Part shown: in pieces, positions 12,152 through 36,644 of the stretch
Numbering within the stretch: the stretch's first letter is position 1
How the letters are laid out: each line of letters opens with the position of its first letter
From: Nitrospirota bacterium
GTDB taxonomy: Bacteria > Nitrospirota > Nitrospiria > 2-01-FULL-66-17
Direction of reading: 5' to 3'
DNA length: 64,000 nucleotides
NCBI GenBank assembly: GCA_049325335.1
Contig: JBMOMC010000001.1
Location: forward strand, 224,001 to 288,000
The notes under the pieces: generated by a model
Database searches by the model: none
Seen by the model: the letters and a program-made list of their open reading frames with translations, nothing else
What the model was told of the DNA's origin: nothing
Made by a program: the position numbers and the translations under genes

Positions 12152-12212
12152 CGGCGCAGTATAACAAAGGCCTTCCGCGGGTTTCAACGAACGCGCACCG
12201 CCGCAATTTTGC

Positions 12213-12242
12213 TTGACTTCACCCGCCGCCCTTCCCTATATT
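12213..12242 (+). promoter_or_regulatory. Putative sigma70 promoter of the cytochrome operon
   Basis: TTGACT-N18-TATATT in the AT-rich divergent intergenic region. Confidence 0.45.
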
Positions 12243-12302
12243 TGGGCTTCTTTTAACCGGCGGATTTCAATTTGGAATTTCGCCCGACGGGTGCGATGCA
12301 AT

Positions 12303-12317
12303 TGGGAATTTTTCCCA
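12303..12317. promoter_or_regulatory. Palindromic putative operator
   Basis: TGGGAA-TTT-TTCCCA perfect inverted repeat in the leader of the cytochrome operon. Confidence 0.3.
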
Positions 12318-12420
12318 CTCCATGCGGTCTTAACCGGTAGCGTCTGAGGCGTGCCCGTCCTCAGGACCGGCAAGGTGCGTCACGGTCATGGGGTCGATCG
12401 CCCGGCGATTGACAGACAAC

Positions 12421-13218
12421 ATGAATGGCCCGCGTCGAATCGTCGTTCTCGCGGTCGTGGCGATCGCCGCCATGCCCTTGGCGATCGCGTTCGCCAACTC
12501 GATTAAAGGCTCCCGGCACGACTTGTCGGGACTGAATATGCGCGGGTACGGCACGGAGACCGGTCCCATGACCGGCGCCACGTTCAACGACTACCAAGAA
12601 GTGTGCGTGTATTGCCACACGCCGCACAACGCGGACGGCACCGCGCCCTTGTGGAACCGCGAGCTGCCGGCCCAGAGCGGGTACCTCATGTACTCGTCGC
12701 CCAATTTTGATTCCAAAGTCGATGCGCCGGACGGCATCTCCCTGGCGTGCCTGTCCTGTCACGACGGGACGGTGGCGGTGGACGCGGTGCGCAACAAACC
12801 CAAGTACCACGCCATCGTGGACGCGGGCACGCACTACAAGATGGACTTAGACGGCTCGCCGGGCAGCGACAGTTGCGGTAAGTGCCACAACCGACAAGAA
12901 GGCGCGTACGGCGGCATCGGCCGGGCGCACGACGCGTCGATTCGGTACCTGACCCGCGATCTGCGCGACGATCACCCGTTTTCGATCCCGTTCCCGTCGA
13001 TGCAACTCGACCCCGGATTTAATCAGCCCACCACGCTGAAGCCGGACGGGGGCCGCATGTTTCCCAACGGTATCCAAACCTTCGAAGGCGACAAGGTGCA
13101 ATGCGCGTCCTGCCACGACCCGCACGATCCGGATGAACGCAACGAACAGGGCCGTGACCCGTTTTTACGAACCTCGAACCGCGAAAGCGCGCTGTGTTTA
13201 ACGTGCCACGCGAAGTGA
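12421..13218 (+). CDS. Secreted pentaheme c-type cytochrome, OmcE-like scaffold
   Basis: Signal peptide; RHDLS, CVYCHTPH, LWNR, CLSCHDG, extra CGKCH, DDHP, CASCHDPH, FLR, CLTCH (5 CxxCH). Alternative start 12388. Confidence 0.88.
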   Translation: MNGPRRIVVLAVVAIAAMPLAIAFANSIKGSRHDLSGLNMRGYGTETGPMTGATFNDYQEVCVYCHTPHNADGTAPLWNRELPAQSGYLMYSSPNFDSKVDAPDGISLACLSCHDGTVAVDAVRNKPKYHAIVDAGTHYKMDLDGSPGSDSCGKCHNRQEGAYGGIGRAHDASIRYLTRDLRDDHPFSIPFPSMQLDPGFNQPTTLKPDGGRMFPNGIQTFEGDKVQCASCHDPHDPDERNEQGRDPFLRTSNRESALCLTCHAK

Positions 13219-14441
13219 ACGAAATGAAGATGACGAACCGGAGAGCCGGGGAACCGGAGAACCGGGGAAAGGACCGAGGGAGTGATCCGTCCGCTTTTTC
13301 ACCCCACCGCCGGTTCACCCCACCTCCCCACCGTCTCTTCGCCCACTCCCCCACTCCCCGGCTCCCCGGCTCGTCCCTTCTCGCTCTTTCGCTCCTGCTC
13401 CTCCTAACCGCCTGCGCCTCCACGCCACGGCCTGAGCCGGATTTAGTCTGGCCGTTGCCGCCGGAGACGCCGCGTATCAAGTTCGTGAAGAGCCTCTCGT
13501 CGTCCGCGGATGTCCGGCCCACGTCGTTCTCGCAACGGCTCAAATCCTCGATTATCGGGGAAGCGCAGACCGCCGCGCTGGGCAAGCCGTACGCGGTGCA
13601 CGCGGACCGCAAGGGTCGCGTGTATGTGGCGGACTCGGCATGGCGCAAGGTCTTGGTGTTCGATGAAACCGGCCAGGACTTCTTCATCCTGGGCACCGAC
13701 GGACCCGGCCTGTTGATCAATCCCCGCGGCGTCACCACCGACGCGGACGGCCGCGTGTATGTGACCGACGTGTCGCAACACCGCGTGGTGGTGTACGACG
13801 AGAAAGGCGAATTTGTACTGGCGATGGGTCTGCGCGGCCAACTGGACAAACCCGTGGGCGTGGCCGTGAACGACGCGCTCAAACGCGTGTACGTGGTCAG
13901 CACGGGCAGCACCGCCACCCAGAGCCATAAGGTCACGGTGTTCGACGCGACCAACGGCAATGTGCTCTTTGAATTCGGCGGCCGCGGCGTCGAAGACGGC
14001 AAGCTCAACTTCCCGACCAACGTGGTCACCGACGCCGAGGGCAAGGTCTACGTCATGGACTCGTTCAACTTCCGCGTGCAGATCTTCGACGCGGACGGCA
14101 AGTTCCTCTCCAAGTTCGGCGGCATCGGCACCGGGTTCGGCCAATTCTCCAAACCCAAGGGCATCGGCGTGGACAGCGAAGGCCACATCTACGTCAGCGA
14201 CGCGGCCTTCAACAACGTCCAGATTTTTGACCGGGACGGCCGATTGTTGTTGTTCTTCGGCGAAATGGGCACCCGACGCGGGCAGTTCTGGTTGCCAGCG
14301 GGACTGGCCGTGGATGGACACAATCGCATCTATGTGGCGGACCAATACAACAAGCGGATCAACATTTATCAATATCTATCCGAAGCCGACCGCACGGGCA
14401 GCGACCGGCCGCGGATGGACCAACCGTCGGTAACCAATTAG
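13215..14441 (+). CDS. NHL-repeat (6-bladed beta-propeller) lipoprotein 1
   Basis: LTAC lipobox; VWPLPPETPRIKFV; repeated P.GV..D..G.VYV.D..N.RVQIFD blades; GTGA overlap with the cytochrome stop. Confidence 0.9.
   Translation: MNEMKMTNRRAGEPENRGKDRGSDPSAFSPHRRFTPPPHRLFAHSPTPRLPGSSLLALSLLLLLTACASTPRPEPDLVWPLPPETPRIKFVKSLSSSADVRPTSFSQRLKSSIIGEAQTAALGKPYAVHADRKGRVYVADSAWRKVLVFDETGQDFFILGTDGPGLLINPRGVTTDADGRVYVTDVSQHRVVVYDEKGEFVLAMGLRGQLDKPVGVAVNDALKRVYVVSTGSTATQSHKVTVFDATNGNVLFEFGGRGVEDGKLNFPTNVVTDAEGKVYVMDSFNFRVQIFDADGKFLSKFGGIGTGFGQFSKPKGIGVDSEGHIYVSDAAFNNVQIFDRDGRLLLFFGEMGTRRGQFWLPAGLAVDGHNRIYVADQYNKRINIYQYLSEADRTGSDRPRMDQPSVTN
13236..13371. repeat. Inverted octamer array A
   Basis: AACCGGAG AGCCGGGG AACCGGAG AACCGGGG, answered by TCCCCCAC TCCCCGGC TCCCCGGC. 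Confidence 0.7.
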
Positions 14442-14479
14442 GCGAGTCCGACGGTTTCACCGACCAGAAGGAGACGCGT

Positions 14480-15523
14480 ATGAAGGCAGTTCGGATCGGA
14501 GGATTCATCGCACTGGCCGCGGTCACGACCGTGGCCGTATGGGCGGCGAGCACCGCGTGGGCGGTCCATTGCGGTACGGGCAGCACGCCGAGTTGTACGG
14601 AAAACGTCCGCGAAACCAAACACAACCTTGCGGCCAACACCGACATCTTATCCACCGGTACCAGCGAGGTCTGCGTGTTCTGCCATACCCCGCACGGCGG
14701 GCGGACCGACGTGGCCGGCGGCGGCGCCCCGTTGTGGAACCGCGCATTGCCGCCTTCGGCAACGAGCGGGACCGGCGCGTTTACGGTCTATACCTCACCC
14801 AATTTCGATAATGACCTCGGCTCCGCATCCGCGGGCCCCAAGGGCGTGTCCTTGGCGTGTTTGTCCTGCCACGACGGGACCATCGCATTGGACGCCCTGA
14901 TCAATGCTCCGGGGTCCGGCGGCTTTGCCCCAGGTAACCGCAACCCCCTCAGCGGGAACTCCCCCGGAACCAGCTTAACCAGCCTGTCGTTTACCGGCCC
15001 GGGCGTGGACGGCACCGAGTCTCTTGGCGAAGGAGACCGTCCGGCTTCCCCATCCGGAGGCGGGTTTAACGGCGGGCTCAATGACTTTGTGGGCGGCGCC
15101 GGGATGGAACCGTTCCCGAACTTGAGCCGGAACTTGACCGACGATCATCCGATCTCGGTTCGTATGCCCAGCGCGGACCCGCAGTTTAACGACGCCCTGG
15201 CCGGCTCCACCACCTTGTCTGCGGGCGGCAACGTGCGATACGTCTCCCGAACCGGGGCTCAGATGCCGCCGGATAGCCGTGACCGCGTCCGGCTCTATAA
15301 CAGCGGGGGCACCAGCAGCGGGACCACTGTGGATTGGGTGGAGTGCGCCTCGTGCCACAACCCCCACACGCCCCGGACCACCTTCCTACGTCTTCCCAGC
15401 ACCCCAAGTGACGTCGGGGCTCCGGCGGACGGCAACGTCACGGTCGCGGCCGGCGCCACGCGCAACTTGAACCACGAACCGAATCAAGGAAGCTTGATCT
15501 GCCTCACGTGCCACCAGAAATAA
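14480..15523 (+). CDS. Secreted tetraheme c-type cytochrome, OmcE-like (candidate filament subunit)
   Basis: AGGAGA RBS; signal peptide ending AWA; KHNL, CVFCHTPH, LWNR, SLACLSCHDG, DDHPI, ECASCHNPH, FLR, CLTCH (4 CxxCH). Confidence 0.88.
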   Translation: MKAVRIGGFIALAAVTTVAVWAASTAWAVHCGTGSTPSCTENVRETKHNLAANTDILSTGTSEVCVFCHTPHGGRTDVAGGGAPLWNRALPPSATSGTGAFTVYTSPNFDNDLGSASAGPKGVSLACLSCHDGTIALDALINAPGSGGFAPGNRNPLSGNSPGTSLTSLSFTGPGVDGTESLGEGDRPASPSGGGFNGGLNDFVGGAGMEPFPNLSRNLTDDHPISVRMPSADPQFNDALAGSTTLSAGGNVRYVSRTGAQMPPDSRDRVRLYNSGGTSSGTTVDWVECASCHNPHTPRTTFLRLPSTPSDVGAPADGNVTVAAGATRNLNHEPNQGSLICLTCHQK

Positions 15524-15528
15524 CGGAG

Positions 15529-15608
15529 CGGCCGGGGTCGGCAACGGCCCCGGCCGGTTTCGCGGTCCTTGTTCAGAGTCCATTCGCCCAGGTTTCGGCC
15601 TGGGCGAA
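15529..15608 (+). terminator. Two tandem GC-rich stem-loops after the tetraheme cytochrome
   Basis: CGGCCGGGGTCG-GCAA-CGGCCCCGGCCG and TTCGCCCAGGT-TTCG-GCCTGGGCGAA. Confidence 0.6.
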
Positions 15609-15657
15609 ACCGCTTCTGGCGGGCCCGTCCGCGCCATGTGGCGACGCACCGCGCACC

Positions 15658-16653
15658 GTGCGTCGGGCCGGTTCGCGACCCGCCGTCACGAACCGCGTGT
15701 TGGTCCCGACCGTGGTGCTGGCAACCGCGTGTTTTGCCGCCGCGGGTCTTGCGGCTGAGCCCCTTGCCGCCACGGTGAACGGCGTGGCCATCACGCTCGC
15801 ACAGGTGGACCGCGCGGTGGACGAGAAGGTGCCGCGTATGGCCGGGCACGGCACGTTGTCTGATGCGCGGCGCCAGGCGCTGCGGGCCGAGGCCCTGGAG
15901 GACTTGATCCAGGAAGAACTCATGGTCCAGGAAGCCAAGCGGCAAAAAATTACGATCGCCCCGGCCGCGGTGGATGAAGAAACCGCCAAGATTAAACGCC
16001 GGTTCACGGATTCCGCGCAGTACACCCGCGCCTTATCGCAATCCGGCCTGTCGGAATCCGATATCCGCGCCGGGGTGGAACGCTTTCTGCTGGTCAAACG
16101 GGTGACGGACAAGGCCGTGACGGATAAGGTCGCCGTCACCGACGCCGCGCTGAAAGCCTACTACGACGCGGACCCGTCGCGGTTCGTGCTACCGGAACAG
16201 GTCCGATACCGTCAGCTCTTGATCGCGGTTGATCCCGGCGGGAGCTCGTCGCAGTGGGAGGCGGCCAAACAACGCGCCGCGAGCCTGGCCAAGGAGGCTC
16301 GCGGGAAAAAATCATTCGCCGACCTGGCCAAGGCCCAGTCGGACGATGCCGCCACCCGCGAATCCGGCGGCGACATGGGCTGGGTCCATCGCGGCCGTTT
16401 GGAGCATGACCAAGACGCGGTAATTTTCGCCTTGCCCGTGGGCGGCGTGAGCGAGCCGGTCCGCACCCTGTACGGGTACGCGGTGTATCGCGTGGACGAG
16501 AAACAGGCGGCCAAAGCCTTGGCGTGGGAAGAGGTCAACAAACCGAGACTGGCCGAGGAACTACGTCTGGCGGAAACCACCCGCGTGCGCGCGGAGTGGC
16601 TCGCCGACCTTCGCCGCCGCGCCAAGGTGGAGGTGTCGTCCACCGCCCCATGA
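15658..16653 (+). CDS. SurA/PrsA-like parvulin-domain chaperone
   Basis: AATVNGVAIT SurA-N region; SFADLAKAQSDD...GGDMGW...VSEPVRT.YGY parvulin motifs. Start uncertain. Confidence 0.85.
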   Translation: MRRAGSRPAVTNRVLVPTVVLATACFAAAGLAAEPLAATVNGVAITLAQVDRAVDEKVPRMAGHGTLSDARRQALRAEALEDLIQEELMVQEAKRQKITIAPAAVDEETAKIKRRFTDSAQYTRALSQSGLSESDIRAGVERFLLVKRVTDKAVTDKVAVTDAALKAYYDADPSRFVLPEQVRYRQLLIAVDPGGSSSQWEAAKQRAASLAKEARGKKSFADLAKAQSDDAATRESGGDMGWVHRGRLEHDQDAVIFALPVGGVSEPVRTLYGYAVYRVDEKQAAKALAWEEVNKPRLAEELRLAETTRVRAEWLADLRRRAKVEVSSTAP

Positions 16654-18536
16654 GCGCGCGCCGCCCCATCCCGGCGCGCCGGATGAACCCTCGGCGCGCG
16701 GAGTCGCTCCACACCCGCGGCCGTGCCGCGCGGTTCGGGCCGGGCGCGTTCGCCGTAATCAGCCTCATCCTGTTCGCGGCAACACCCGCGCCCGCTATTG
16801 AGTGGCACGGGGTGGCGGAATTAACGACCCGGTGGTCGCGTTGGGACCATCGCGTGTTGAGCACGGACCTGACGCCCGCACGCACCAGCGGTCTCCAACA
16901 ACGGTATCAACTCGGCAGCTCGGGCAGCCTGTATCACCCCAACGTGGGAAGTTATATCGCCAACATTTCACTGGTTGACGACGTCGCGCGTGTCAACGAC
17001 GAAAAATCGCAGGACCTGGTCGTGAAGGATTACTACCTCGGGTTCAACTTCCTACCGCGTCAGACGCCGATTTCGCTCTACGCCCAACGCACCACCCAGG
17101 ACAACGAGGCGTTTCGGCCCGACACCTACGGGCCGGTCTCCGTCAACACCACGTACAACCTGACCTGGGACTTCCCGCTCAAGCGCCTGCCCCGTCTGCG
17201 GCTGAACCTGTCGCAGACCGACGTGCAAACCGACTCGCGCCTGGCGTCGTTGAGCAATGCAACGGGCCAAACCACCCGCGCCGCGGCGTTGGACACGGAC
17301 GGACAAGCCGGGAACACGCGTTTCTTTGCGCGGTATCAGCTCTCGGAACTCACCGGCGAAGTCGCGGACAACACCAGCCACACCATCACGGCCTCGACCG
17401 ACACCAAGGTGACGCCGGCCTTGTCCGCAGCCACCCGCGTGAACTACTCGTCCAACGTCACGACCATCGGCTCGGTCACGCCGGGCACGCTGCTACAACG
17501 CAGCGCGGGCGCCAGCGTGTTTTATCGGCCCAGCCTGCAAACGTCCTTGAGCGGAACCTACGACTACTACAAAGACCCGTTCGTCCGGCACCTGGCTCAA
17601 GGCTCCGCCGCTTTGCGGCCGCTTCAGGAGTTGGACATTTCCGCGGGGTACCGCCTGGCGCGTTTTGACCTGCGCGATTCTCTCACCGACTCGCACTACG
17701 CGTTCGCGAGCGCCAACTACCGCCCGTTCCTGGGGTTGTCGACGAACGCCACCGCCTCCATCGGCCTGACCGAGGTCAGCGGCGCCAGCGACGTACGCAG
17801 CCTGTATCAGAGTTACGGGTACGGGGCAAACTACTTAAAGACCCTCACACTGGTCACCTATCGCCTCGGGTACCAAGGCAACTACAGCGAGAACAAGCTG
17901 AACACCTCCGCCGGCACCTCGCGCGATTTGACCAATACCTTCTCCGCGGGCCTCAGCAACACGCAAACGCGCGTGGTCGCGCTCTCCGGAGACTACGCCT
18001 TGTCCCTCATTCGGCATCGCACCGCCGGGACCGACGCCTCCGATCAAGTCGACCATCGCGCGCAGGTGACGGCCACCAGCAGCGCGCCGCAGAATCTGTT
18101 TCTCACCGGAGACTTCATGGTCGTTTCCGCCCTGGCCTCCTACGCAGTCACTCAGTACCGGACGTTTTCCAACCACGTCCTGTTGCTAAGCGCCACCGAC
18201 ACGTACGAGACCGGCCGCGGCGTGGCCGCCACGGTCGGGTATACCTATGAACAACAGTCGCAACTGGATTACGACAACAAATCCACCAGCTTTATCCAGG
18301 TGCGCTGGTTGTCGTATATTGTGCGGAACGGATCGCTGGACCTGAACGCCAAGGAATCATGGGAACGCTACGCGGGCAACCAACAAGACGTCACCCGCAC
18401 CGAAGGCGGCGCCTTGTTCTCGTACTATATCGGGAAGCTGTCGCTGAGCGCGGACTACCGGCTCACGTTCGAGACGCGCACCGCGGATCGGCAACTCAAT
18501 CAGACCGCGTTTGCCAAGGCCTCGCGCTCGTTTTGA
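16650..18536 (+). CDS. Large outer-membrane beta-barrel / porin-like protein
   Basis: Signal peptide ending APA; many alternating Y/S/T/G-rich amphipathic strands; C-terminal Phe (AKASRSF). Confidence 0.75.
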   Translation: MSARRPIPARRMNPRRAESLHTRGRAARFGPGAFAVISLILFAATPAPAIEWHGVAELTTRWSRWDHRVLSTDLTPARTSGLQQRYQLGSSGSLYHPNVGSYIANISLVDDVARVNDEKSQDLVVKDYYLGFNFLPRQTPISLYAQRTTQDNEAFRPDTYGPVSVNTTYNLTWDFPLKRLPRLRLNLSQTDVQTDSRLASLSNATGQTTRAAALDTDGQAGNTRFFARYQLSELTGEVADNTSHTITASTDTKVTPALSAATRVNYSSNVTTIGSVTPGTLLQRSAGASVFYRPSLQTSLSGTYDYYKDPFVRHLAQGSAALRPLQELDISAGYRLARFDLRDSLTDSHYAFASANYRPFLGLSTNATASIGLTEVSGASDVRSLYQSYGYGANYLKTLTLVTYRLGYQGNYSENKLNTSAGTSRDLTNTFSAGLSNTQTRVVALSGDYALSLIRHRTAGTDASDQVDHRAQVTATSSAPQNLFLTGDFMVVSALASYAVTQYRTFSNHVLLLSATDTYETGRGVAATVGYTYEQQSQLDYDNKSTSFIQVRWLSYIVRNGSLDLNAKESWERYAGNQQDVTRTEGGALFSYYIGKLSLSADYRLTFETRTADRQLNQTAFAKASRSF

Positions 18537-18580
18537 GGTGATGCAATGTGGAATCGCGTTGCGGTAGACTGGGAACCCCG

Positions 18581-19672
18581 ATGACGCTTCGCAACCGCTC
18601 ACCCTGGATATCCGCCGCAACGTCGGTCTGCGCCGCGCTGATGCTCGCGGCCTGCGCCGGCGCGCCGCCCGCGCCCGTTGCGCCCGTCGCGGCTCGCGTG
18701 TGGCCGCTCCCCCCGGACCCTCCGCGGATCGAATACGTCAAAGACCTTACCCAGCCCGAGGCGTCGCAAAAACGCAAGGGATTTTTCACGCGCCTGTTCG
18801 AACGCTTGGTCGGGAAAGATTCCGAAACGCCGGTTCGCATGATCCGTCCGTTCGCCCTCGTGACGAACGACGCCGGCGACCTGTTCGTCACGGACACGGG
18901 GTTGCAAGTCGTGCACCGATTCGCGGCGGACGGCGCGTACCAACAATTCTTTCGCCTGGATAAGGGACGCCGGCTGCTCTCGCCCACCGGGGTGACTCAG
19001 GACGCCGATGGGCTGTTGTACGTGGCGGATTCGCAGATGAACCGCGTGGTCGTGTTCGACCGCCGCGGCGCGTACCAACGCGAGTTCGTGGCGGATGACG
19101 ACGCGGTGCGGGTCTCGGGCATCGCGTACCACCCGGGCCGCGACGTGTTGTACGTGAGCGATGCCGGCGGACACAAAATCCTCCTGTTCGGCCGCGACGG
19201 CCGCAAGCGCTCCGAATTCGGGACGCGCGGTCCGGAGGCAGGACAATTTAACTTCCCCACGCACCTGGCGGTGGATGGGGCGGGCCGGTTGTACGTGACC
19301 GACGCCATGAATTTCCGCGTGCAAGTATTGGAACCGGACGGCCGCTGGGTGCGGTCCATCGGCCGGTTGGGCGCCACCCTGGGCAGTTTTTCCAAGCCCA
19401 AGGGCGTGGGACTGGATCAACACGGGAATGTGTACGTCGTGGACGGATTGTACGACACGGTGCAGATTTTCAATCCCGATGGGGAATTACTCATGAACTT
19501 CGGGAACGCGGGCCTTGGCGAAGGCGCGTTCTGGCTGCCCACCGGCGTGGCCGTGGACGGGCGGGACCGGATTTACGTGGCCGACACGTACAACGCCCGG
19601 GTGCAGGTGTTTCGGCTGCTGGCGGACGGAGAACAGACGAGCCGGGGAACCGGGGAGCCTGGGAACCGGTGA
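18581..19672 (+). CDS. NHL-repeat beta-propeller lipoprotein 2
   Basis: LAAC lipobox; VWPLPPDPPRIEYV; paralogous to 13215-14441 (FNFPT, NFRVQ, FSKPKG, FWLP). Confidence 0.9.
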   Translation: MTLRNRSPWISAATSVCAALMLAACAGAPPAPVAPVAARVWPLPPDPPRIEYVKDLTQPEASQKRKGFFTRLFERLVGKDSETPVRMIRPFALVTNDAGDLFVTDTGLQVVHRFAADGAYQQFFRLDKGRRLLSPTGVTQDADGLLYVADSQMNRVVVFDRRGAYQREFVADDDAVRVSGIAYHPGRDVLYVSDAGGHKILLFGRDGRKRSEFGTRGPEAGQFNFPTHLAVDGAGRLYVTDAMNFRVQVLEPDGRWVRSIGRLGATLGSFSKPKGVGLDQHGNVYVVDGLYDTVQIFNPDGELLMNFGNAGLGEGAFWLPTGVAVDGRDRIYVADTYNARVQVFRLLADGEQTSRGTGEPGNR

Positions 19673-19742
19673 AACAGATCCCGACAAATTTACGCCCCCG
19701 TTGTTCCGCTGTTTCTCCGTTTCCCCGGCTCCCCGGCTCGTC
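19637..19742. repeat. Inverted octamer array B
   Basis: GACG AGCCGGGG AACCGGGG AGCCTGGG AACCGGTG ... CCGTTTCC CCGGCTCC CCGGCTCGTC, spanning the NHL2 stop codon. Confidence 0.7.
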
Positions 19743-19761
19743 TTTTCAACTGGAGGTTGGC

Positions 19762-22700
19762 ATGACGAACGCGCGATGGCTCCGATACGTTCTGGCCGCA
19801 GGCGCAGCGGCTGCGATGACTGTCGTGGCATGGCCGCACACCGGCCACGCCCAACCCCCGCCCCCGCCGCCTCCGCCACCGAGCCAACAGGTTCTGGAAG
19901 ACATCACCAACACCAAACACAACCTGTCGTCGGTCGATCCGGCGCAATTGCTCTCTTCCGGCGTGCTCCCGCGTCCCGGCACCTCGCGCGACGCGCAGTC
20001 CACGCCGGCCGGCACCAGCGAAATCTGCGTGTTCTGCCATACCCCGCACGGCGCCAGCGTCACCGGCGGGGAGTTCAAGGCGCCGCTCTGGAACCGCAAC
20101 CTGGACTACCAAGCCTCGCGCACCTACCAACTCTACGACCAGGTCTGGAGCTTTTCCTTTGAAGGCACGCTCAATGACGCGGCGGGCCGACGGCCCACCG
20201 GGTATTCGCGCCTGTGTTTGTCCTGCCACGACGGCACCGTGGCGCTGGGCAACACGCTCAACGCGCCGGGCAGCGGCGGATACTTGGGCCAGATTCCCAT
20301 GACCGGCGCTCTCGGACCGGGAGGCACCATTCCCCGCGGCAGCGGCGACCTCACCGGCGATACGCGTCGTCTCGGATTGGATCTGCGCAACGACCACCCC
20401 ATTTCCTTCACGTTCGATTCGACTCTACTCATCCAAGACCCGGAACTGGTGGACCCCGGCCCGGCGCTGACGGCGCCGTCTAGGAAGGTCAGCGATCCCA
20501 CCCCGATCTCGCCCGCGCGGCGCTATCCGGGCAACGACACCAATACGTATGACTCGGTGCAGTGTACGTCGTGCCACAATCCGCACCAGGTCAATTACCC
20601 CAAGTTCCTGCGCGCCAACTGGTTCCACAACGAGATCAACAACCCGGACCCGACCAAGAACCACCCCACCGAACAGATCATTTGTCTGTTCTGCCACGAC
20701 AAACCCCGCTGGATTGACAACACCCATGCGATTTCCACCGCAGTCCGCAGCCAATACCCATTGGTCAACAACGACCCGTCGAACGAAAACTCGGGATATG
20801 ACTTCGACGGCAGCCATACGGTCTCGGAAGTGGCCTGCCGCAACTGCCACGACCCGCACACCATCCAAGGTGCCAAGCGCCTACACCGCGAGGGCGTGAA
20901 CGCGCAAGGCACGGACGGCATCGAAGCCACCTGTTATTTGTGCCACTCGCCCAACACCACGCCCACCGCCGTGGGCACCTTGGTGGCGGGCGACCCCACC
21001 TCCGGCGCCAACCCCAGGTTCGTCGCGGGCACGGGGCGGCCCGCGCCCGACGTCTACAGCGAATTCGCCAAAGACATCGGTATCGGGAACTGCGCGACGT
21101 TCCCTCGCTGCGGCAGCGCCATGAACCTGCAGTTCAACCAGGGCCACGAACCCGTGTTCACCGCGCGCTCCCAAGAAGGCGTGGAACTCGACAGCCCCTC
21201 ACCGCCCGCGAACAACGAAGCCGCTCCCGGCGTGAGCACGCCGGACACCGCGCACATCGAGTGCGTGGACTGCCACAACCCGCACCAGGTGGTCAGAGAC
21301 AACCGGTTGCGGGGCATCAAGGGCATCACCTACGACGCCCAGGTCATCGAGACCACTTCCGCGGACCTCAACCGGCCGTATGTCTACGAAGTCTGCTTCC
21401 GCTGTCACGGCAACAGCTACACCAATATTTTTAACGGCGATCGATACCCCGACGATACCAAATACTCATTGGGCAGCCTCAATTTTTCGTTCCGCTCGAA
21501 CCCGCAATCCGCCCCGAGCAACCCCCGATTTAGCCTGTCCGGGTTCTCGAATAAGCGATTGGAATTCGCGACGTATGGGCGGCTTGAACGCGAACGTCAA
21601 GGCGGACCCGATGCCAGCTATGTCCTTGGCGACCCGTGGCCGACGGATCCGACTCGGCGCGTGGGGCCCGGCGCTCACAAGTCTTTCCACCCCGTGGTCG
21701 CCGGCGGCCGCAACGGCACCGACGCGTTGACCAAACAACTCCAAGCATGGTCCGCCGGACGCGCGGCCCATGAGATCACGATCCAATGCACGGACTGCCA
21801 CAACAACGACTATTACAACGCCTACGGCACCAGCGGGTCACAGACCGTGGTGCAGTCCCGCTTCCTCGGTCCCATCACGGAGAGCAACACCGTGCGGCCC
21901 GGAGACGTGCGGAACCTCGGCATTGCGCAGGATTATGACGGCGAGCGGAGCCAACACCCCATTGGCCCGCATGGATCCAACTACATTCGTATTCTCCGCG
22001 CGCCCTACAATACCGACATCGCCAACTCGAACCGAAGCTTCCCTAACGACGGATTCAGTTCGTCCCATTGGGACAAGTTCCTCCTATGCTTTCAGTGCCA
22101 TGACCGCAATGCGTTTGACCCGTTCCTGAACCCCAGCGGCGTGCAGGATGCGAGCTGGACCAACTTTTTCGGCGTCCCGGGAGACCCGAATGACGGCGCG
22201 GGTGGGCAGTTCCCGCCGACCCAATTGAGTTGGGAATCCAATCTGCACATGTACCATCTGCAACGCACCGGTGCGTTGTGCCACGAATGCCACTACAACG
22301 TCCACAGCAATGTGCAGGCGCAAAACACGATCTTCGGCGACGGAACCGGGTGCATCGGCGGCACCACCGGTTGCCCGGCCGGCCTCCCGCCGGATGACGA
22401 AGACGGCGTGGCCGACGGGGTCAGCGACACGCACTTGATCAACTTCGCGCCCCCAGGGCCATCCACCTACACCGGCGCTCGCCGGTGCGACGAAAACATC
22501 ACGGGCGGAGACGTGGCGTGTATCGAAGGCGCGACCGCCAACCCCAACCCCTCCAGTACCGGCACGGAACTGTCGTCGGATCCCAAATCCAACGTGTTCT
22601 CCGGCGTCGAGGGAGTCACCGCGGACCGACCGGTCTGGTATTACACCGAAACGATCGGGGGCGATGCCCCGGGCCAACCGTACGGCGTGTTTCGGTGTAA

Positions 22701-22983
22701 TTTGCGCTGCCACGGCGTGGTGATGTCCACCTGTTATTACATGGGCAACGCCAACCGCAATTTGAACCGCCAGATGAATGTCGGTTTACCCAACGGGACG
22801 TGGTGCGCGGGAGGGCGGGACCAGATCGCGCCCATCGGCATCGGTTCGGCCCCGCCTCCGGAGATCCAACAGTTGCTGGCGGGCTTCGGACAGGGCTTGA
22901 CGTCCGGTCGATTGGAAGAGGCCGCCAAACGCGCGGTCCGGCTGGCATCGGAAACACCGGCGCGACCGGCTCACGCCCACTAA
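19762..22983 (+). CDS. Large secreted multiheme cytochrome c (11 CxxCH + 1 CxxxCH), N-terminal OmcE-like module
   Basis: GGAGG RBS, signal peptide, poly-Pro. Motifs: CVFCH, CLSCH, CTSCH, CLFCH, CRNCH, CYLCH, CVDCH, CFRCH, CTDCH, CFQCH, CHECH, CNLRCH. Confidence 0.9.
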   Translation: MTNARWLRYVLAAGAAAAMTVVAWPHTGHAQPPPPPPPPPSQQVLEDITNTKHNLSSVDPAQLLSSGVLPRPGTSRDAQSTPAGTSEICVFCHTPHGASVTGGEFKAPLWNRNLDYQASRTYQLYDQVWSFSFEGTLNDAAGRRPTGYSRLCLSCHDGTVALGNTLNAPGSGGYLGQIPMTGALGPGGTIPRGSGDLTGDTRRLGLDLRNDHPISFTFDSTLLIQDPELVDPGPALTAPSRKVSDPTPISPARRYPGNDTNTYDSVQCTSCHNPHQVNYPKFLRANWFHNEINNPDPTKNHPTEQIICLFCHDKPRWIDNTHAISTAVRSQYPLVNNDPSNENSGYDFDGSHTVSEVACRNCHDPHTIQGAKRLHREGVNAQGTDGIEATCYLCHSPNTTPTAVGTLVAGDPTSGANPRFVAGTGRPAPDVYSEFAKDIGIGNCATFPRCGSAMNLQFNQGHEPVFTARSQEGVELDSPSPPANNEAAPGVSTPDTAHIECVDCHNPHQVVRDNRLRGIKGITYDAQVIETTSADLNRPYVYEVCFRCHGNSYTNIFNGDRYPDDTKYSLGSLNFSFRSNPQSAPSNPRFSLSGFSNKRLEFATYGRLERERQGGPDASYVLGDPWPTDPTRRVGPGAHKSFHPVVAGGRNGTDALTKQLQAWSAGRAAHEITIQCTDCHNNDYYNAYGTSGSQTVVQSRFLGPITESNTVRPGDVRNLGIAQDYDGERSQHPIGPHGSNYIRILRAPYNTDIANSNRSFPNDGFSSSHWDKFLLCFQCHDRNAFDPFLNPSGVQDASWTNFFGVPGDPNDGAGGQFPPTQLSWESNLHMYHLQRTGALCHECHYNVHSNVQAQNTIFGDGTGCIGGTTGCPAGLPPDDEDGVADGVSDTHLINFAPPGPSTYTGARRCDENITGGDVACIEGATANPNPSSTGTELSSDPKSNVFSGVEGVTADRPVWYYTETIGGDAPGQPYGVFRCNLRCHGVVMSTCYYMGNANRNLNRQMNVGLPNGTWCAGGRDQIAPIGIGSAPPPEIQQLLAGFGQGLTSGRLEEAAKRAVRLASETPARPAHAH

Positions 22984-22990
22984 CCGGCTC

Positions 22991-23788
22991 GTGGATAAGG
23001 GTTGGCTCGCGGTTGGCGCCGTGGTCATCGTGGTGGCGGCCGCGGCATTACTGGTGCAACACGGTCCTGGGGAACCGCCCGACGGCATGGTCGTGATTCC
23101 CGGCGGCACGTTTCATCTGGGCAGCCGCGGCGACGAGGCCAGGGTGGGGTTTGAAATCGGGGTGGATGAGATGCCGCAACACGCGGTTCGCCTGCGCTCG
23201 TTTTTCCTCGACCGGCACGAAGTCACCAACGCGCAGTACCACCGCTTCATCGCGGCCACCGGGCGTCCGAGCCCGGCCGATCCCCACGACGCCCAGTATT
23301 ACTCGTGGGTGGACGGCAAGCCGCCGGCCGGCCAGGAAGAGCATCCGGTTTGCTACGTCAATTGGGAGGAAGCGGACGCCTACTGCCGATGGGCCGGGAA
23401 ACGCCTCCCGACCGAAGCCGAATGGGAACGCGCGGCGCGCGGGGACGACAACCGTCCCTGGCCGTGGGGCACCGTCTTCGACCCCGCGCGCTGTAACGCC
23501 ATGGAAACCGACCTGCGGTGGTCCACCCCGGTCGGCAGTTTCCCGGACGGCGCCAGCCCGTACGGCGTGCTGGATTTGTGCGGCAACGTGGCCGAGTGGA
23601 CCGCGTCTTGGTACGAGCCCTACCCCGGCAACACCCTCACCCGCGGCGCCTTCGGCAAACAGATGCGCGTGGCGCGCGGCGGCGCGTGGGTGCTCACCGC
23701 CGAACCCTGGTCGCGCGCCACCAACCGCAATTTGTCGCAACCGCCGGACCTGCGGCATCGGAGTTTGGGGTTCAGGTGCGCGAAGTGA
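22991..23788 (+). CDS. FGE/SUMF1-fold protein 1 (N-terminal membrane anchor)
   Basis: MVVIPGGTF.LG, EVTNAQY, RLPTEAEWERAARG, GNVAEW, RGGAW, GFRC. Confidence 0.9.
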   Translation: MDKGWLAVGAVVIVVAAAALLVQHGPGEPPDGMVVIPGGTFHLGSRGDEARVGFEIGVDEMPQHAVRLRSFFLDRHEVTNAQYHRFIAATGRPSPADPHDAQYYSWVDGKPPAGQEEHPVCYVNWEEADAYCRWAGKRLPTEAEWERAARGDDNRPWPWGTVFDPARCNAMETDLRWSTPVGSFPDGASPYGVLDLCGNVAEWTASWYEPYPGNTLTRGAFGKQMRVARGGAWVLTAEPWSRATNRNLSQPPDLRHRSLGFRCAK

Positions 23789-24720
23789 TTGAGCCGGGGA
23801 GCCGGGGAGCCGGAGAAACGGTGAAGAAGCGAGAAAAACAATCAGTCGTTGTCGAACCGATTCCCCGCGTCTCCGGCTCTCCGGCTCATCTTTCCACCGT
23901 TGCGCCGATTCCCCAGTTCCCCGGCTCCCCCCACCGTCTTTTCATCGCTCTTCTAGCTGTCGTTCTCCTCTCCTGCTCTCATCCCCCGCTCTCCCCCTCC
24001 CCGGTTCCCCCCCTCGTCTCTTCTCCCCCTCCCCCCCTCGGTCCATTAGGAATGGTGTTCATTCCCTCCGGACCATTCCTGATGGGCAGCGCGCCCAGTC
24101 CGACGCTGGCGTGGTACGAACAAGGGGTCGATGAAACGCCGCAACGTCGCGTCACCCTCAGCGCGTTTTGGATCGATCGGCACGAAGTGAGCGAAGGCGC
24201 GTACGCCGCGTTTGTCGCGTCCACTGGACATCGCGCCCCGCGCATGTGGCCCGATGGCAGGCCTCCGCATGACGATCACCCGGTTGTGGATGTGTCCTGG
24301 AACGACGCGGACGCCTACTGTCGGTGGGCCGGGAAACGCCTGCCGACCGAAGCCGAGTGGGAGAAAGCCGCGCGAGGACCCGACGGCCGCATCTGGCCGT
24401 GGGGCAATGACTACCGACCAGGCGCCGCGGTCTTGCAGGACTCCTCGCGCGGGGATACCGCCGCGTCGGGCAGCCATCCCGATGACGTGAGCCCGTACGG
24501 CGTGTACGATATGGCCGGCAACGCCATGGAGTGGACCGCGTCATGGTATGAGAAGTATCCGGGCAGCACGCTGGAGCGGCTCGATTTCGGCGAACAATAT
24601 CGCGTCCTCAAAGGCGGCGCGTGGACCACCCCCGCGTTGCCGTTCAGCCGCGCCGCCAATCGCCACGCCATCGCCCCGTTCTGGGACCACCCGCATTTCG
24701 GCTTCAGATGCGCGAAATGA
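23785..24720 (+). CDS. FGE/SUMF1-fold lipoprotein 2
   Basis: LLSC lipobox; RLPTEAEWEKAARG, GNAMEW, KGGAW, GFRC. Start uncertain (GTG 23785 or 23821). Confidence 0.85.
   Translation: MIEPGSRGAGETVKKREKQSVVVEPIPRVSGSPAHLSTVAPIPQFPGSPHRLFIALLAVVLLSCSHPPLSPSPVPPLVSSPPPPLGPLGMVFIPSGPFLMGSAPSPTLAWYEQGVDETPQRRVTLSAFWIDRHEVSEGAYAAFVASTGHRAPRMWPDGRPPHDDHPVVDVSWNDADAYCRWAGKRLPTEAEWEKAARGPDGRIWPWGNDYRPGAAVLQDSSRGDTAASGSHPDDVSPYGVYDMAGNAMEWTASWYEKYPGSTLERLDFGEQYRVLKGGAWTTPALPFSRAANRHAIAPFWDHPHFGFRCAK
23791..24040. repeat. Inverted octamer array C and pyrimidine-rich tract
   Basis: GAGCCGGG x2, GAGCCGGA, GAAACGGT, answered by CCGATTCC, CCGGCTCT, CCGGCTCA and CCGGCTCC units. Confidence 0.7.
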
Positions 24721-25154
24721 TCGAGGGGGTGAGGGGGAGAATGGGCGAGGGGGAGACCAGACCGACAAGCGGTTCTCCGAGAATAGGGAATCACCGCGAG
24801 CTGCGGGTGTATCAAGGCGCGATGGAGGCAGCGATGCGCGTGTATGAGGCGACCAAATCGTTTCCTCCGGAAGAACGGTATTCCCTGGTCGATCAGATGC
24901 GCCGTTCGTCGCGATCCGTGTGTGCTAATCTGGCTGAAGCCTGGCGCAAACGCCGTTACCCAGCGGCGTTTGTGGCGAAGCTAACCGACGCAGAGGGTGA
25001 AGCATGCGAAACGCAAGTATGGATCGACTTCGCCAAGCGATGCCGGTATCTTGATAACGTCACCTGTCGAGAGCTTGACCAGGTGTACGATCACGTACTC
25101 GCTCAGCTCGTCTGTATGATCGACGAGCCAGGGAAATGGACCATTACGAAGTAG
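24717..25154 (+). CDS. Four-helix-bundle protein (23S rRNA IVS-encoded protein-like family)
   Basis: HRELRVYQ.AM...FPPEERYSLVDQMRRSSRSVCANLAEAW...EACETQVW family signature. Confidence 0.9.
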   Translation: MIEGVRGRMGEGETRPTSGSPRIGNHRELRVYQGAMEAAMRVYEATKSFPPEERYSLVDQMRRSSRSVCANLAEAWRKRRYPAAFVAKLTDAEGEACETQVWIDFAKRCRYLDNVTCRELDQVYDHVLAQLVCMIDEPGKWTITK

Positions 25155-25189
25155 CTTCCACGATGCCCCGACGGAAAGAGGACCTCCCC

Positions 25190-26008
25190 ATGCGCACATT
25201 CACCGTTTGTGGATTTGTGGCCTTTTTAGCCGTGTCCTGCTCCATTCACCCCCTCACCCCCTCACCCCCTCACCCCCTCGCCCCTCCGCCGGGTATGGTC
25301 TTAATACCCCCCGGTCCCTTCTGGATGGGTAGTGACGCCTCCGACGGGGCGCTGGGCATCGAAGTCGGCGTGGACGAAACACCTCGTCACCAGGTCCACG
25401 TGCCCGCGTACTTCATCGACAAATACGAAGTCACCAACGCGCAATACGGCGAATACGTGAAGGCCGTCGGCTCCGCGTACCAACCCGCGCCCTGGCGCGA
25501 ACGCGACGCGCTGAACAAGGAACCCAACCACCCGGTGGGCGACACGGACTACTACGATGCGGAGGCCTACTGCACCTGGGCGGGCAAGCGCCTGCCGACC
25601 GAAGCCGAGTGGGAAAAAGCCGCGCGCGGGCCGGATGGCGCGGCGTACCCCTGGGGCCCGACGTTTTCGCGCGAGCGGGCCAATACCATGGAGAGTGGCT
25701 TGGCGTGGAGCAAACCCGTAGGCAGTTACCCGCAGGGCGCGAGCGTGTACGGCGTCGAGGATCTCATTGGCAACGTGTGGGAGTGGACCAGTTCCTGGTA
25801 CGAGCGGTACCCCGGCAACACCGTGGAGCGCGCCGCGTACGGGCAGAAATACCACGTGTTGCGCGGCGGCTCCTGGGGCGCGCCGGCCGTGCCCTTTGCC
25901 CGCGCCGCCAACCGCCACGCGCCCGAGCTGTTCGCGATCAACGACCGCGACACGGACTGGCACACCGGCTACGACGTAGGCTTTCGCTGCGCGAGGGACG
26001 CGAGATAA
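25190..26008 (+). CDS. FGE/SUMF1-fold lipoprotein 3
   Basis: GAGGA RBS; AVSC lipobox; RLPTEAEWEKAARG, GNVWEW, RGGSW, VGFRC. Confidence 0.88.
   Translation: MRTFTVCGFVAFLAVSCSIHPLTPSPPHPLAPPPGMVLIPPGPFWMGSDASDGALGIEVGVDETPRHQVHVPAYFIDKYEVTNAQYGEYVKAVGSAYQPAPWRERDALNKEPNHPVGDTDYYDAEAYCTWAGKRLPTEAEWEKAARGPDGAAYPWGPTFSRERANTMESGLAWSKPVGSYPQGASVYGVEDLIGNVWEWTSSWYERYPGNTVERAAYGQKYHVLRGGSWGAPAVPFARAANRHAPELFAINDRDTDWHTGYDVGFRCARDAR
25247..25286. repeat. (CACCCCCT)4 array, inverted partner of the AGGGGGTG units at 24724-24756
   Basis: Read directly from the sequence; the two arms bracket the four-helix-bundle gene. Confidence 0.7.
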
Positions 26009-26174
26009 ACGGACTTACGTATACTCACGGCTGACGCGTACGCTTGAGATGCTCCGGGTGGAGGGAGGTACGCCACCGTCAATGGAATGCTCGATCCTAC
26101 ATCTCGAACTGGATAACGAGTGCAAGAGAAAACTGCGAGGCCATCGAACAGCCGTGGTGAGGGCGCCGCACTCC

Positions 26175-27425
26175 CTACCCCAGAAGGTGCCAGGGCACGG
26201 CCACGATGTTCTCCGCCAGGCGGGTGACCTCACGACCGGTGTGGATGAGCAGTCCGCCGACGGCTTCGGGATACTCGTGACAGAATGCCTGTAACCCCGC
26301 GGCATCGCTATATCGCGGCGTGGCGGAGAGTTTCACTTCGATGGCCAGCAGTTTTCGCGCGTGCTCGATGACAAAATCCACCTCCTGCCCCGTGGTCGTT
26401 CGCCAGTAAAAGAGGCGCGGCCGCGGAAGCCAGGCCTGCACCGCCACGAGCAGATGGAGCAGCACCAACGTTTCGAACAGGCCGCCGGCTTCCCGCGAGG
26501 CCGACAGTGTCCGCTCCTCGTGGTGACCGGCCAAGTACGCGGCGAGTCCGGGATCGGTCCAATACAGCTTGGGAGTTTTGATCAGTCGTGTGGTCCGACT
26601 CCTGGCGAACGCCGGGATGCGGACTAGCAGGTGGGAGGCTTCCAGGAGATTGAGGTAGCGATGCACCGTGGGTTGGCTGACTCCGGTATCGCGCGAGACC
26701 TCGGTCTGATTGAGCATCTGGCCGCTACGCAGCGCCAGCGCCTCCATCACGCGCCGGAAGTCCGCCAGGGAATCGACCTGGGACAACTGACGCAGATCGC
26801 GCTCCAGGTAGGTCGCCACGTACCCCTCCCACCAACGAAGCACGGCCGCGGTGCCGGAGAGGGTCGTCAGGGCCGGCATGAATCCGCGCAACATGTGGAA
26901 CACGGGTGACTCGTCGGTGTCGATCCTCCGCTCACGCGGGAACACGCCTCGCAAGACGCCACGCAGGAGATCCGAATCAGGGCGGCCGTAAAGTTCGCCC
27001 AGCGCCATGGGCAGCAGCGTGAAATAGACGGCGCGACCGGCGAGCGTCTCGCTCACGTTCCGCATCAGCAGCAAATTGGCGGAGCCCGAGAGCACGAATC
27101 GAACCACCTGGCGCCGTCGATCCACGGCCTGTTTGACCGCCGACAAGAGCGCCGGCGACTTCTGCACTTCGTCCAACACCACGCGGTCAACGCCCGCCCA
27201 CAAGGCGGCCGGGTCCCGCTCGGCCCGGTGGAGGGCGTCGAAATCGTCCAGCGTGACATACCGCCATGTGGAGAAGGGCTCCTCGTGCCGCAGCAGCGTG
27301 CTTTTGCCGACCTGGCGGGCTCCGGTCAGAATCACCACCGGGTGATCGTCGACCGCCTGCCGCATCAACGAGGCCAGCCTCCGGGGTTGATATAATAATT
27401 CATATTGTGAATGATTATCATTCAT
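26175..27425 (-). CDS. AAA_14/DUF4143 family ATPase
   Basis: GARQVGKST, LDEVQ, SGSANL, LAGRA, YLERDL, KTPKLY..DPGL, EVDFV...AIEVK. Confidence 0.9.
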   Translation of the reverse strand: MNDNHSQYELLYQPRRLASLMRQAVDDHPVVILTGARQVGKSTLLRHEEPFSTWRYVTLDDFDALHRAERDPAALWAGVDRVVLDEVQKSPALLSAVKQAVDRRRQVVRFVLSGSANLLLMRNVSETLAGRAVYFTLLPMALGELYGRPDSDLLRGVLRGVFPRERRIDTDESPVFHMLRGFMPALTTLSGTAAVLRWWEGYVATYLERDLRQLSQVDSLADFRRVMEALALRSGQMLNQTEVSRDTGVSQPTVHRYLNLLEASHLLVRIPAFARSRTTRLIKTPKLYWTDPGLAAYLAGHHEERTLSASREAGGLFETLVLLHLLVAVQAWLPRPRLFYWRTTTGQEVDFVIEHARKLLAIEVKLSATPRYSDAAGLQAFCHEYPEAVGGLLIHTGREVTRLAENIVAVPWHLLG

Positions 27426-36629: not shown

Positions 36630-36644
36630 GGAGCCCGGAACGAC

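What the first reader, a model, noticed from the sequence alone, without database searches (positions are those of the whole stretch)
12421..26008. Candidate cytochrome-nanowire / extracellular electron transfer operon with its own assembly machinery
Seen: eleven closely spaced or overlapping + strand genes. Order: pentaheme cytochrome, NHL lipoprotein, tetraheme cytochrome, parvulin chaperone, large beta-barrel, second NHL lipoprotein, 12-heme cytochrome, two FGE-fold genes, four-helix-bundle gene, third FGE-fold gene (21 heme motifs in total). All three cytochromes share the ordered signature (K/R)H(N/D)L - CVxCHTPH - LWNR - CLSCHDG - DHP - CxSCHxPH - FLR - CLxCH. Known: this signature resembles Geobacter OmcE-type filament cytochromes. 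The Geobacter OmcS companion cluster also pairs cytochromes with beta-propellers and a prolyl-isomerase chaperone. Inference: a self-contained system that exports and polymerises heme filaments or forms a trans-outer-membrane conduit, in an apparently non-Geobacter (Nitrospirota-like) organism. It could take up electrons (metal oxidation) or release them. The FGE-fold members are not a component I know from described clusters.
Basis: partly seen in the sequence, partly recalled or inferred. Interest (0 to 1): 0.9.

Follow-up and report, generated by a model that had tools for sequence, protein, structure and literature searches.

The report
Nitrospirota OmcE-type cytochrome wire operon
This operon encodes three relatives of the Geobacter nanowire cytochrome OmcE, a predicted giant outer-membrane pore and likely assembly helpers; the same gene run recurs across uncultured Nitrospirota and, by gene order, in a cultured manganese oxidiser, where it likely forms a haem wire that would carry electrons from minerals into the cell.

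Summary
In detail: eleven genes and 21 haem motifs (20 CXXCH, 1 CX3CH). All three cytochromes match solved OmcE filaments (7TFS, 9YUQ), and the tetraheme keeps OmcE's eight histidines. The kind of system is known. It is homologous gene for gene to the uet cluster (Tenderiales) and fits the published omcE cluster, whose paper already notes Nitrospirota and 5-haem variants. This scan also found such clusters on other DNA.

(1) The family is in 40 of 61 Nitrospiria genomes, in conserved order, and was not found in two nitrite-oxidoreductase-bearing families (0/41, 0/17). (2) The same run is in Ca. Manganitrophus, is transcribed during Mn(II) oxidation, and is probably the 'family-unique' PCC_1. 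(3) The barrel models as 30 strands, and the 12-haem protein is an OmcE head plus an extension ending in a likely His/Met haem. (4) FGE-fold genes are stable members (25 of 28 genomes) without catalytic cysteines, whereas the four-helix gene is a recent passenger.

Filament formation is untested. Manganitrophus transcripts show no excess of the tetraheme, so a short conduit is a real rival. Verdict: new variant of a known kind.

The parts
12421..13218 (+). cytA: 5-haem OmcE-family cytochrome; the extra haem sits in an internal insertion; most conserved gene; candidate periplasmic base or anchor
   Evidence: 7TFS E 6e-25; 5 invariant non-motif His in 28/28, H130 26/28, H138 22/28; median 71% identity outside own family
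13224..14441 (+). NHL beta-propeller 1, probable lipoprotein (start uncertain; ORF from 13194)
   Evidence: PF01436 E 5.5e-27; 34% to the second NHL gene of the Ca. Tenderia sp. locus L078; lipobox by eye
14480..15523 (+). cytB: tetraheme OmcE/UetA homolog with long loop insertions; candidate polymer subunit; 1-3 copies in relatives
   Evidence: 7TFS E 8.8e-14, 9YUQ E 2.5e-11; profile E 2e-24; 4 CXXCH + 4 distal His in 38/38; 32% to the L078 tetraheme, E 4e-30
15658..16653 (+). SurA/parvulin-type chaperone, UetB-like (start uncertain; ORF from 15508); shortened in families f7 and f12, not seen in some loci
   Evidence: PF13624, PF00639; 34% to the L078 PPIase
16650..18536 (+). Outer-membrane beta-barrel, predicted 30 strands, no plug; UetC homolog
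   Evidence: AlphaFold2 pLDDT 90.5; profile-profile probability 98.8, E 7e-17 to 22 barrels in the uetC position; no close solved relative, best TM 0.47
18581..19672 (+). NHL beta-propeller 2, probable lipoprotein
   Evidence: PF01436 E 1.7e-29; 39% to an L078 NHL gene
19762..22983 (+). cytC: 12-haem UetJ/OccP-family cytochrome; OmcE-like head (haems 1-4) plus an 8-haem extension ending in CX3CH-xxx-M; candidate outer tip
   Evidence: head vs 7TFS E 1e-14; module-by-module homology to the undecaheme family, E 3e-98, 3e-66, 1e-42; that family's haems 5-8 align to OmcS, E 5.5e-8; Met at H+4 in 115 of 120 homologs
22991..23788 (+). fge1: FGE-fold protein, N-terminal hydrophobic anchor (by eye), no catalytic CX4C
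   Evidence: PF03781 E 4.6e-60; own ortholog clade; conserved His-Arg near the C-terminus
23785..24720 (+). fge2: FGE-fold probable lipoprotein (start uncertain; ORF from 23518)
   Evidence: PF03781 E 2.3e-58
24741..25154 (+). Four-helix-bundle gene (TIGR02436); recent passenger, not part of the machine
   Evidence: only copy found in the genome
25190..26008 (+). fge3: FGE-fold probable lipoprotein
   Evidence: PF03781 E 2.7e-55
13227..13395 (.). Degenerate 8-base inverted repeat array at the cytA/nhl1 junction; similar arrays at 19623-19754 and 23783-24030, and flanking the four-helix gene (24719-24761, 25241-25294)

Best explanation
The operon encodes three OmcE-family cytochromes, a predicted 30-strand outer-membrane barrel, two propellers, a chaperone and three FGE-fold proteins, which likely assemble into one haem wire across the outer membrane that probably carries electrons inward from solid or dissolved metal donors. 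Proposed steps, all inferred: the chaperone and propeller lipoproteins would deliver matured cytochromes to the barrel. The 12-haem cytC would go out first and form the tip, with its probably His/Met-ligated last haem facing the donor. Tetraheme cytB units would stack head-to-tail behind it through the OmcE-type inter-subunit histidine, to an unknown and possibly short length. The 5-haem cytA would close the periplasmic end and hand electrons through its extra haem to c7 trihaem carriers encoded elsewhere. The FGE-fold proteins would be non-catalytic periplasmic binding or assembly factors.
For: Shown: homology to two solved OmcE filaments with all 8 His kept in cytB. Gene-for-gene homology to a uet-order locus. 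Conserved order in relatives. Barrel model. Surplus conserved His in cytA (6-7 for 5 haems) and cytC (15 for 12); PMC13712944 names a surplus His as the mark of an anchor and says it found no tip candidate in omcE operons. cytA is more conserved than cytB in 27 of 27 loci; medians are 71, 43 and 42% for cytA, cytB and cytC. PMC12977616 passages say surface cytochromes evolve fastest. cytB is duplicated in 6 of 32 genomes. For inward flow: the genome has an ATP-citrate-lyase domain, a bd-like oxidase and a near-consensus Cyc2 motif; it showed no NiFe hydrogenase large subunit, no COX1 and no NxrA/NarG-type match at E 1e-30. The same run in Ca. Manganitrophus Mn1 is transcribed during Mn(II) oxidation, percentiles 0.34-0.90. 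His is replaced by Met at the terminal motif in Nitrospirota: Met in 115 of 120 homologs, His in 13 of 15 non-Nitrospirota copies.
Against: In Mn1 the tetraheme transcript (percentile 0.68) is below the 12-haem one (0.83) and only about twice the barrel's, not the excess a micrometre filament would need. cytB itself has a ninth His in 26 of 38 copies, so the His-surplus argument is not clean. cytA was seen in none of the 68 non-Nitrospirota loci, so it cannot be the universal anchor. cytB is about 115 residues longer than OmcE, and the insertions could block stacking. The OmcS match came from the broad profile only; the Nitrospirota profile did not reach it at E 0.05, and modules 2-3 match the tetraheme only over short motif stretches. 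Homologous kits serve reducers too (Geobacter; Dechloromonas occ). Three f6 genomes have no FGE next to cytC. The His/Met-potential rule is my own knowledge, not a call.
Confidence: 0.42

Rival explanations
1. A fixed porin-cytochrome conduit without a filament: the 12-haem cytC, with one tetraheme and the pentaheme, sits in and on the barrel at about 1:1, MtrCAB-like, as proposed for uet.
For: Near-equal Mn1 transcripts of tetraheme, pentaheme and 12-haem genes. The plug-less 30-strand barrel is wide enough to hold a cytochrome. The best TM among the first three Foldseek ranks is to MtrB (0.37). The uet authors' own model.
Against: cytB keeps the exact His count of polymerising OmcE and is duplicated or triplicated in 6 of 32 genomes. 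Both solved relatives are filaments.
Confidence: 0.3
2. The same wire runs outward: it reduces Fe(III) or Mn(III/IV), or passes electrons to partner cells, as in Geobacter OmcE and Dechloromonas Occ.
For: OmcE serves reducers. occ was expressed during Mn(III) reduction. The family also occurs in other Nitrospirota classes. The genome has two large c7-type cytochromes with 14 and 24 haems.
Against: No hydrogenase large subunit found; rTCA marker, oxidase and Cyc2-like gene point to aerobic lithoautotrophy. It is expressed in a Mn(II) oxidiser. Only six marker families were searched, so the metabolism is thinly sampled.
Confidence: 0.17
3. The polymer is mainly structural (adhesion, bundling, charge storage), and the FGE-fold proteins are lectin-like binders or merely clustered paralogs.
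For: OmcE bundles are proposed to aid biofilms. The genome has 12 FGE-domain ORFs, several beside unrelated cytochrome or oxidase genes. A paper disputing a conduit role for filaments appeared in a search listing only (PMC11077965).
Against: A 21-haem investment. Trihaem carriers are linked in families f4, f7, f8, f12 and inside the uet operon. The FGE genes stay in the run in 25 of 28 genomes and were recruited from at least three clades.
Confidence: 0.11

Closest known systems
uet cluster of Ca. Tenderia electrophaga / Tenderiales and Gallionella (10.1101/2022.05.06.490989; PMC10734462)
   Same: Tetraheme, PPIase, barrel, two NHL and an 11-CXXCH cytochrome, all homologous to the Ca. Tenderia sp. 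locus L078 (32-39% identity; barrel by profile). The uet names for L078 genes were assigned by position and haem count.
   Different: Extra 5-haem cytA, a twelfth CX3CH motif, FGE trio and another gene order. Trihaems lie in trans, no cupredoxin in the run, no adjacent ccsAB/nrfG/bat genes. The passages read do not mention OmcE or Nitrospirota (0 occurrences in the preprint text).
omcE nanowire cluster of Desulfuromonadia (PDB 7TFS, 9YUQ; PMC13712944)
   Same: OmcE homolog, two more multihaem cytochromes, two propeller lipoproteins and a large barrel. The paper lists Nitrospirota homologs and 5-haem OmcE-like proteins.
   Different: PPIase and FGE genes are not named in its main text (0 hits); no glycosylation tract follows here; cytB is 347 aa against 218-232 aa; no filament shown. 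The Geobacter neighbours were not compared in sequence.
Ca. Manganitrophus Mn1 locus Ga0306812_1011434-1011443, probably PCC_1 (PMC9040806)
   Same: Annotation order 3, 3, 5 haems, NHL, 4 haems, SurA-like, outer-membrane protein, NHL, 12 haems, FGE equals G041's run, whose cytA clusters at 90% with NKE70511.1 of Ca. M. noduliformans.
   Different: One FGE of another clade, short chaperone, trihaem pair adjacent. The paper calls PCC_1 unique to that family. The text seen gives no locus tags, so the equation with PCC_1 is by elimination (the two MtrAB pairs are in only 1-2 of 8 genomes), at about 70% odds.
occ cluster of Ca. Dechloromonas occultata (10.1101/695007)
   Same: Undecaheme of about 920 aa with NHL genes; Rhodocyclaceae loci of this type were retrieved with the cytC family.
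   Different: 19 genes with 10 cytochromes; linked to Mn(III) reduction; OccP itself was not aligned here.

Membership tests
OmcE filament cytochrome (cytB) | Four CXXCH and four distal His in OmcE order, with sequence homology to 7TFS/9YUQ | tested here: met
OmcE filament cytochrome (cytB) | Head-to-tail polymer with a haem ligated by the neighbour's His | not testable with these tools
omcE gene cluster | OmcE + two multihaem cytochromes + two propeller lipoproteins + large barrel | tested here: met
   definition in PMC13712944; content
omcE gene cluster | Orthology of the two companion cytochromes and the barrel to the Geobacter/Desulfuromonas genes | not tested
   those neighbours were not among the loci fetched
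uet cluster | uetA, B, C, H, I, J homologs | tested here: met
uet cluster | uetD, E, G trihaems and uetF cupredoxin inside the operon, uet gene order | tested here: not met
   none in 12421-26008; trihaem homologs (40-50% to L078) on contig C43
PCC_1 of Ca. Manganitrophaceae | Identity with the genes the authors call PCC_1 | tested here: inconclusive
   no locus tags in the passages or tables seen; fits by haem count, 8/8 presence and elimination
Formylglycine-generating enzyme (active) | Catalytic cysteine pair (CX4C; motif recalled) | tested here: not met
   no CX4C in fge1-3
Diversity-generating retroelement (FGE-type target + Avd-like gene) | Variable C-terminal binding region with template repeat and reverse transcriptase | tested here: not met
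   C-terminal sites are conserved within each ortholog group; no template-like repeat in 12000-26300; Avd models score below cut-off; reverse transcriptase was not searched genome-wide
MtrB/PioB porin or chaperone-usher usher | Family match, 26- or 24-strand barrel, plug | tested here: not met
   no Pfam/NCBIfam hit; 30 strands, no plug; TM 0.37 and 0.32

The most novel reading that the evidence does not exclude
omcE, uet, occ and the manganese oxidiser's PCC_1 are one machine. Chemolithoautotrophic Mn(II) oxidation, and the unknown energy metabolism of most non-nitrifying Nitrospiria, would run on an OmcE-type nanowire used in reverse. The Nitrospirota operon would name the missing end pieces: a 12-haem tip with a His/Met haem, a 5-haem periplasmic anchor, and FGE-fold proteins as a new class of cytochrome assembly factor.
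Probability: 0.22. Interest if true: 0.82.

Novelty: new variant of a known kind. Interest (0 to 1): 0.52.

Why it matters
How OmcE wires are exported, started and ended is stated as open in PMC13712944, and the entry point for electrons in Mn(II) lithotrophy is only hypothesised. This locus links the two questions and points to a culture that exists (Ca. Manganitrophus), where filaments, stoichiometry and potentials can be measured. If the run is PCC_1, it is not a marker of manganese oxidisers: it occurs in 12 of 17 sampled Nitrospiria families and has homologs in several phyla. The kit as such, and its presence in Nitrospirota, are already in print.

Tried and rejected
Structure of cytC: mean pLDDT 60, head 30-50; Foldseek gave no match at E 0.001; uninformative. 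Complex folding (planned: cytC 355-975 with fge1) was not available, so there is no binding result either way. VIA-align searches were not run. RNA runs for this genome: none was listed; no evidence either way. Rejected: DGR reading of FGE + four-helix gene. Rejected: FGE as dedicated factor for the CX3CH motif, because 18 loci have CX3CH without a nearby FGE (the rows are not independent, some genomes appear twice). Rejected: three full tandem OmcE repeats in cytC, since modules 2-3 align to the tetraheme over only 18-47 columns. Weakened: 'FGE link is Nitrospirota-only'. In my 68 non-Nitrospirota loci same-strand FGE genes were in 2 and fell outside the trio's clades, but two unchecked scan notes report FGE add-ons elsewhere. 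The FGE tree is the quick tree; the careful search did not finish. Papers not held: the 2022 OmcE structure, the 2025 OmcS assembly paper and the 2020 Mn-oxidation paper. The supplement of PMC13712944 could not be read and may list these organisms or genes; figure 3B of PMC9040806 would settle PCC_1.
Full report
1. Observation. The eleven genes are there in the stated order. cytA has 5 CXXCH, cytB 4, and cytC 11 plus one CX3CH. Families: NHL twice, SurA/rotamase, FGE-sulfatase three times, TIGR02436, and nothing for the barrel. The ordered signature matches cytA and cytB, 2 of 20,859 genome ORFs and 0 of 2000 shuffles; cytC failed my spacing limit but holds the same motifs invariant. Start codons of nhl1, the chaperone and fge2 are uncertain. 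Signal peptides were judged by eye.

2. The cytochromes. The only significant PDB sequence hits of all three are Geobacter OmcE (7TFS) and 9YUQ: cytA E 6e-25, cytB 9e-14, cytC head 1e-14. I take 9YUQ to be the D. soudanensis OmcE of PMC13712944 from its label and 16 chains; no call states this. In 38 of 38 cytB copies the four motifs and four distal His are invariant; a ninth, N-terminal His is in 26 of 38. cytA adds a fifth haem in an insertion and keeps 5 invariant non-motif His plus H130 (26/28) and H138 (22/28). cytC keeps 15 non-motif His in at least 31 of 32 copies, one of them inside a motif. Its three parts match the wider undecaheme family part by part (E 3e-98, 3e-66, 1e-42). A profile of that family aligns haems 5-8 to OmcS haems 1-4 (E 5.5e-8), but the Nitrospirota-only profile did not. 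After the terminal CX3CH the fourth residue is Met in 115 of 120 homologs and His in 13 of 15 non-Nitrospirota copies. I infer a His/Met haem of higher potential; that rule is my own knowledge. The cytC model was poor and its fold search empty.

3. The barrel. AlphaFold2 gives a plug-less barrel of 30 strands at pLDDT 90.5. No solved barrel is close: TM 0.32 to the FimD usher, 0.37 to MtrB, 0.47 to a Deinococcus S-layer complex. The fold therefore does not separate 'usher' from 'conduit'. Nitrospiria barrels are homologous to 22 barrels in the uetC position (probability 98.8, E 7e-17).

4. Distribution. Homologs of cytC are named Nitrospiria or Nitrospirae by their sources. With cytB as query, 40 of 61 genomes of the class match (own genome included), in 12 of 17 families. 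With cytA, 66 of 221 genomes of the phylum match at E 1e-15; families f3 and f15 give 0 of 41 and 0 of 17. Those two families carry a 1150-aa molybdoenzyme (5/11 and 3/3 at E 1e-30) that I read as NxrA from recall. I fetched stretches from 35 of the 39 matching relatives. The order cytA-nhl1-cytB-chaperone-barrel-nhl2-cytC recurs, sometimes split by contig ends or insertions, and cytB has 2-3 copies in 6 of 32 genomes. Families f21 and f25 of other classes show the same order; f23 has trihaems inside the run; f20, f27 and f35 differ. Median identity outside the own family is 71% for cytA, 43% for cytB, 42% for cytC and 29% for the barrel. Kin are not independent, so these counts show conservation, not selection.

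5. The FGE genes. Of 28 class genomes where the end of cytC is visible, 25 have one to three FGE genes in the run. The three exceptions are all family f6, one of them with a pair 8.7 kb away; a second cytC copy in G014 has none within 5 kb. fge1-3 form ortholog groups, while families f5 and f7/f12 use other FGE clades, so the slot has been filled more than once. None of the three has the catalytic cysteine pair. The genome has 12 FGE-domain ORFs, including a pair beside the bd-like oxidase and two fused to dihaem domains, so the fold travels with respiratory genes in this lineage. The fold has a non-enzymic precedent in the secretion ring protein PorK/GldK. A role in assembly is inference. Among 68 non-Nitrospirota loci, same-strand FGE genes were in 2. 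Scan notes e1-974826 and e1-5120514 report FGE add-ons in other lineages, unchecked. The four-helix gene is a passenger: present in G000 and G001, absent at this place in G002 and G004, and bracketed by inverted 8-base arrays.

6. What is in print. PMC13712944 (abstract, results on structure and gene clusters, discussion read; supplement unreadable) defines the minimal omcE cluster, reports homologs in Nitrospirota, describes 5-haem OmcE-like proteins, and leaves export, anchor and tip open. The uet preprint (passages) has tetraheme, PPIase, barrel, three trihaems, cupredoxin, two NHL and an undecaheme, and allows either a conduit or polymers. The window's genes hit a Ca. Tenderia sp. locus of that order at 32-39%, and uetD/E-like trihaems lie on contig C43. 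The occ preprint (passages) and PMC10734462 (passages) extend the family. Searches listed no paper that ties OmcE to uet, occ or PCC_1, or names FGE genes in such a cluster; subscription papers, including the OmcS assembly paper, were not searchable. Scan note e1-1110001 had already drawn the OmcE/uet link on other DNA.

7. The manganese oxidiser. G041's proteins are labelled Ca. Manganitrophaceae, and its cytA shares a 90% cluster with NKE70511.1 of Ca. Manganitrophus noduliformans. Table S6 of PMC9040806 (rows seen) lists Ga0306812_1011434-1011443 with the same annotation order. Expression percentiles under Mn oxidation: trihaems 0.90 and 0.66, pentaheme 0.74, NHL 0.61, tetraheme 0.68, chaperone 0.35, outer-membrane protein 0.48, NHL 0.39, 12-haem 0.83 (8 of 8 genomes), FGE 0.34. 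I matched these rows by order and haem count, not by sequence. The paper calls PCC_1, a porin-dodecahaem complex, unique to that family and a candidate first acceptor in Mn oxidation. The two MtrAB pairs in the table occur in 1-2 of 8 genomes, so this run is the likely PCC_1 (about 70%). If so, the uniqueness claim fails. The same data argue against long filaments in that state, because the tetraheme is not in excess.

8. Direction. The genome (99% complete) has an ATP-citrate-lyase domain, one bd-like oxidase, no COX1, only short N-terminal hits to the hydrogenase model, and no NxrA/NarG-type match at E 1e-30. It also has one ORF with a near-consensus Cyc2 motif (motif from PMC8406198 passages). 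This fits electron uptake by an aerobic or microaerobic autotroph, but it rests on few markers.

9. Mechanism and verdict. Shown: composition, homologies, synteny, residue patterns and the barrel model. Inferred: export through the barrel, stacking of cytB, cytC as tip, cytA as base, inward flow and FGE as assembly factors. I give this model 0.42, a fixed conduit 0.30, outward flow 0.17 and a structural role 0.11. It works like an omcE/uet system and meets the gene-content test of the omcE cluster. It fails the strict uet gene set, and polymerisation was not testable. Novelty: new variant of a known kind. Interest 0.52, carried by the link to the cultured Mn oxidiser and the named candidates for tip, anchor and helper, not by the kit itself.

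Noticed in passing
window 13227-13395, 19623-19754, 23783-24030, 24719-24761, 25241-25294: Degenerate 8-base inverted arrays at gene junctions. One pair brackets the four-helix gene, with its right arm read as the proline-rich tether of fge3. This looks like a small insertion element with empty and filled sites; the filled site is absent in G002 and G004.
   Followed up: partly
G000 C6:94998-96434 (-) and C7:119785-121236 (-): Two monohaem, porin-length ORFs; the first nearly fits the Cyc2 consensus, the second less well.
   Followed up: partly
L153:6783-13935 (G000 C43): Two tandem 1.1-kaa pentahaem proteins with almost no Pfam match, followed by DUF3105 and TPR genes, with an FGE pair on the other strand.
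   Followed up: no
L150:5041-10946 (G000 C43): 14-haem and 24-haem c7-type cytochromes with TPR lipoprotein, Rieske and an unknown membrane gene.
   Followed up: no
L149:9952-11804 and L155:7432-9446: Two pairs of FGE genes in which one is fused to a dihaem domain and keeps a CX4C motif.
   Followed up: no
L156:5428-16786 (G000 C2): bd-like oxidase cluster with two FGE genes directly upstream.
   Followed up: no
L151:6248-8405 and L152:4910-5898: Five c7 trihaem genes in two groups; the pair in L152 is the ortholog of the pair lying beside the operon in families f4, f7, f8 and f12.
   Followed up: yes
L120: A contig titled as a Thermoplasmata archaeon carries NHL, tetraheme, outer-membrane barrel, NHL and 11-haem genes in bacterial order; probably a binning error.
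   Followed up: no
window 35244-37934: Alginate-export-type porin followed by an NMT1-like binding protein, possibly a nitrate or cyanate uptake module.
   Followed up: no
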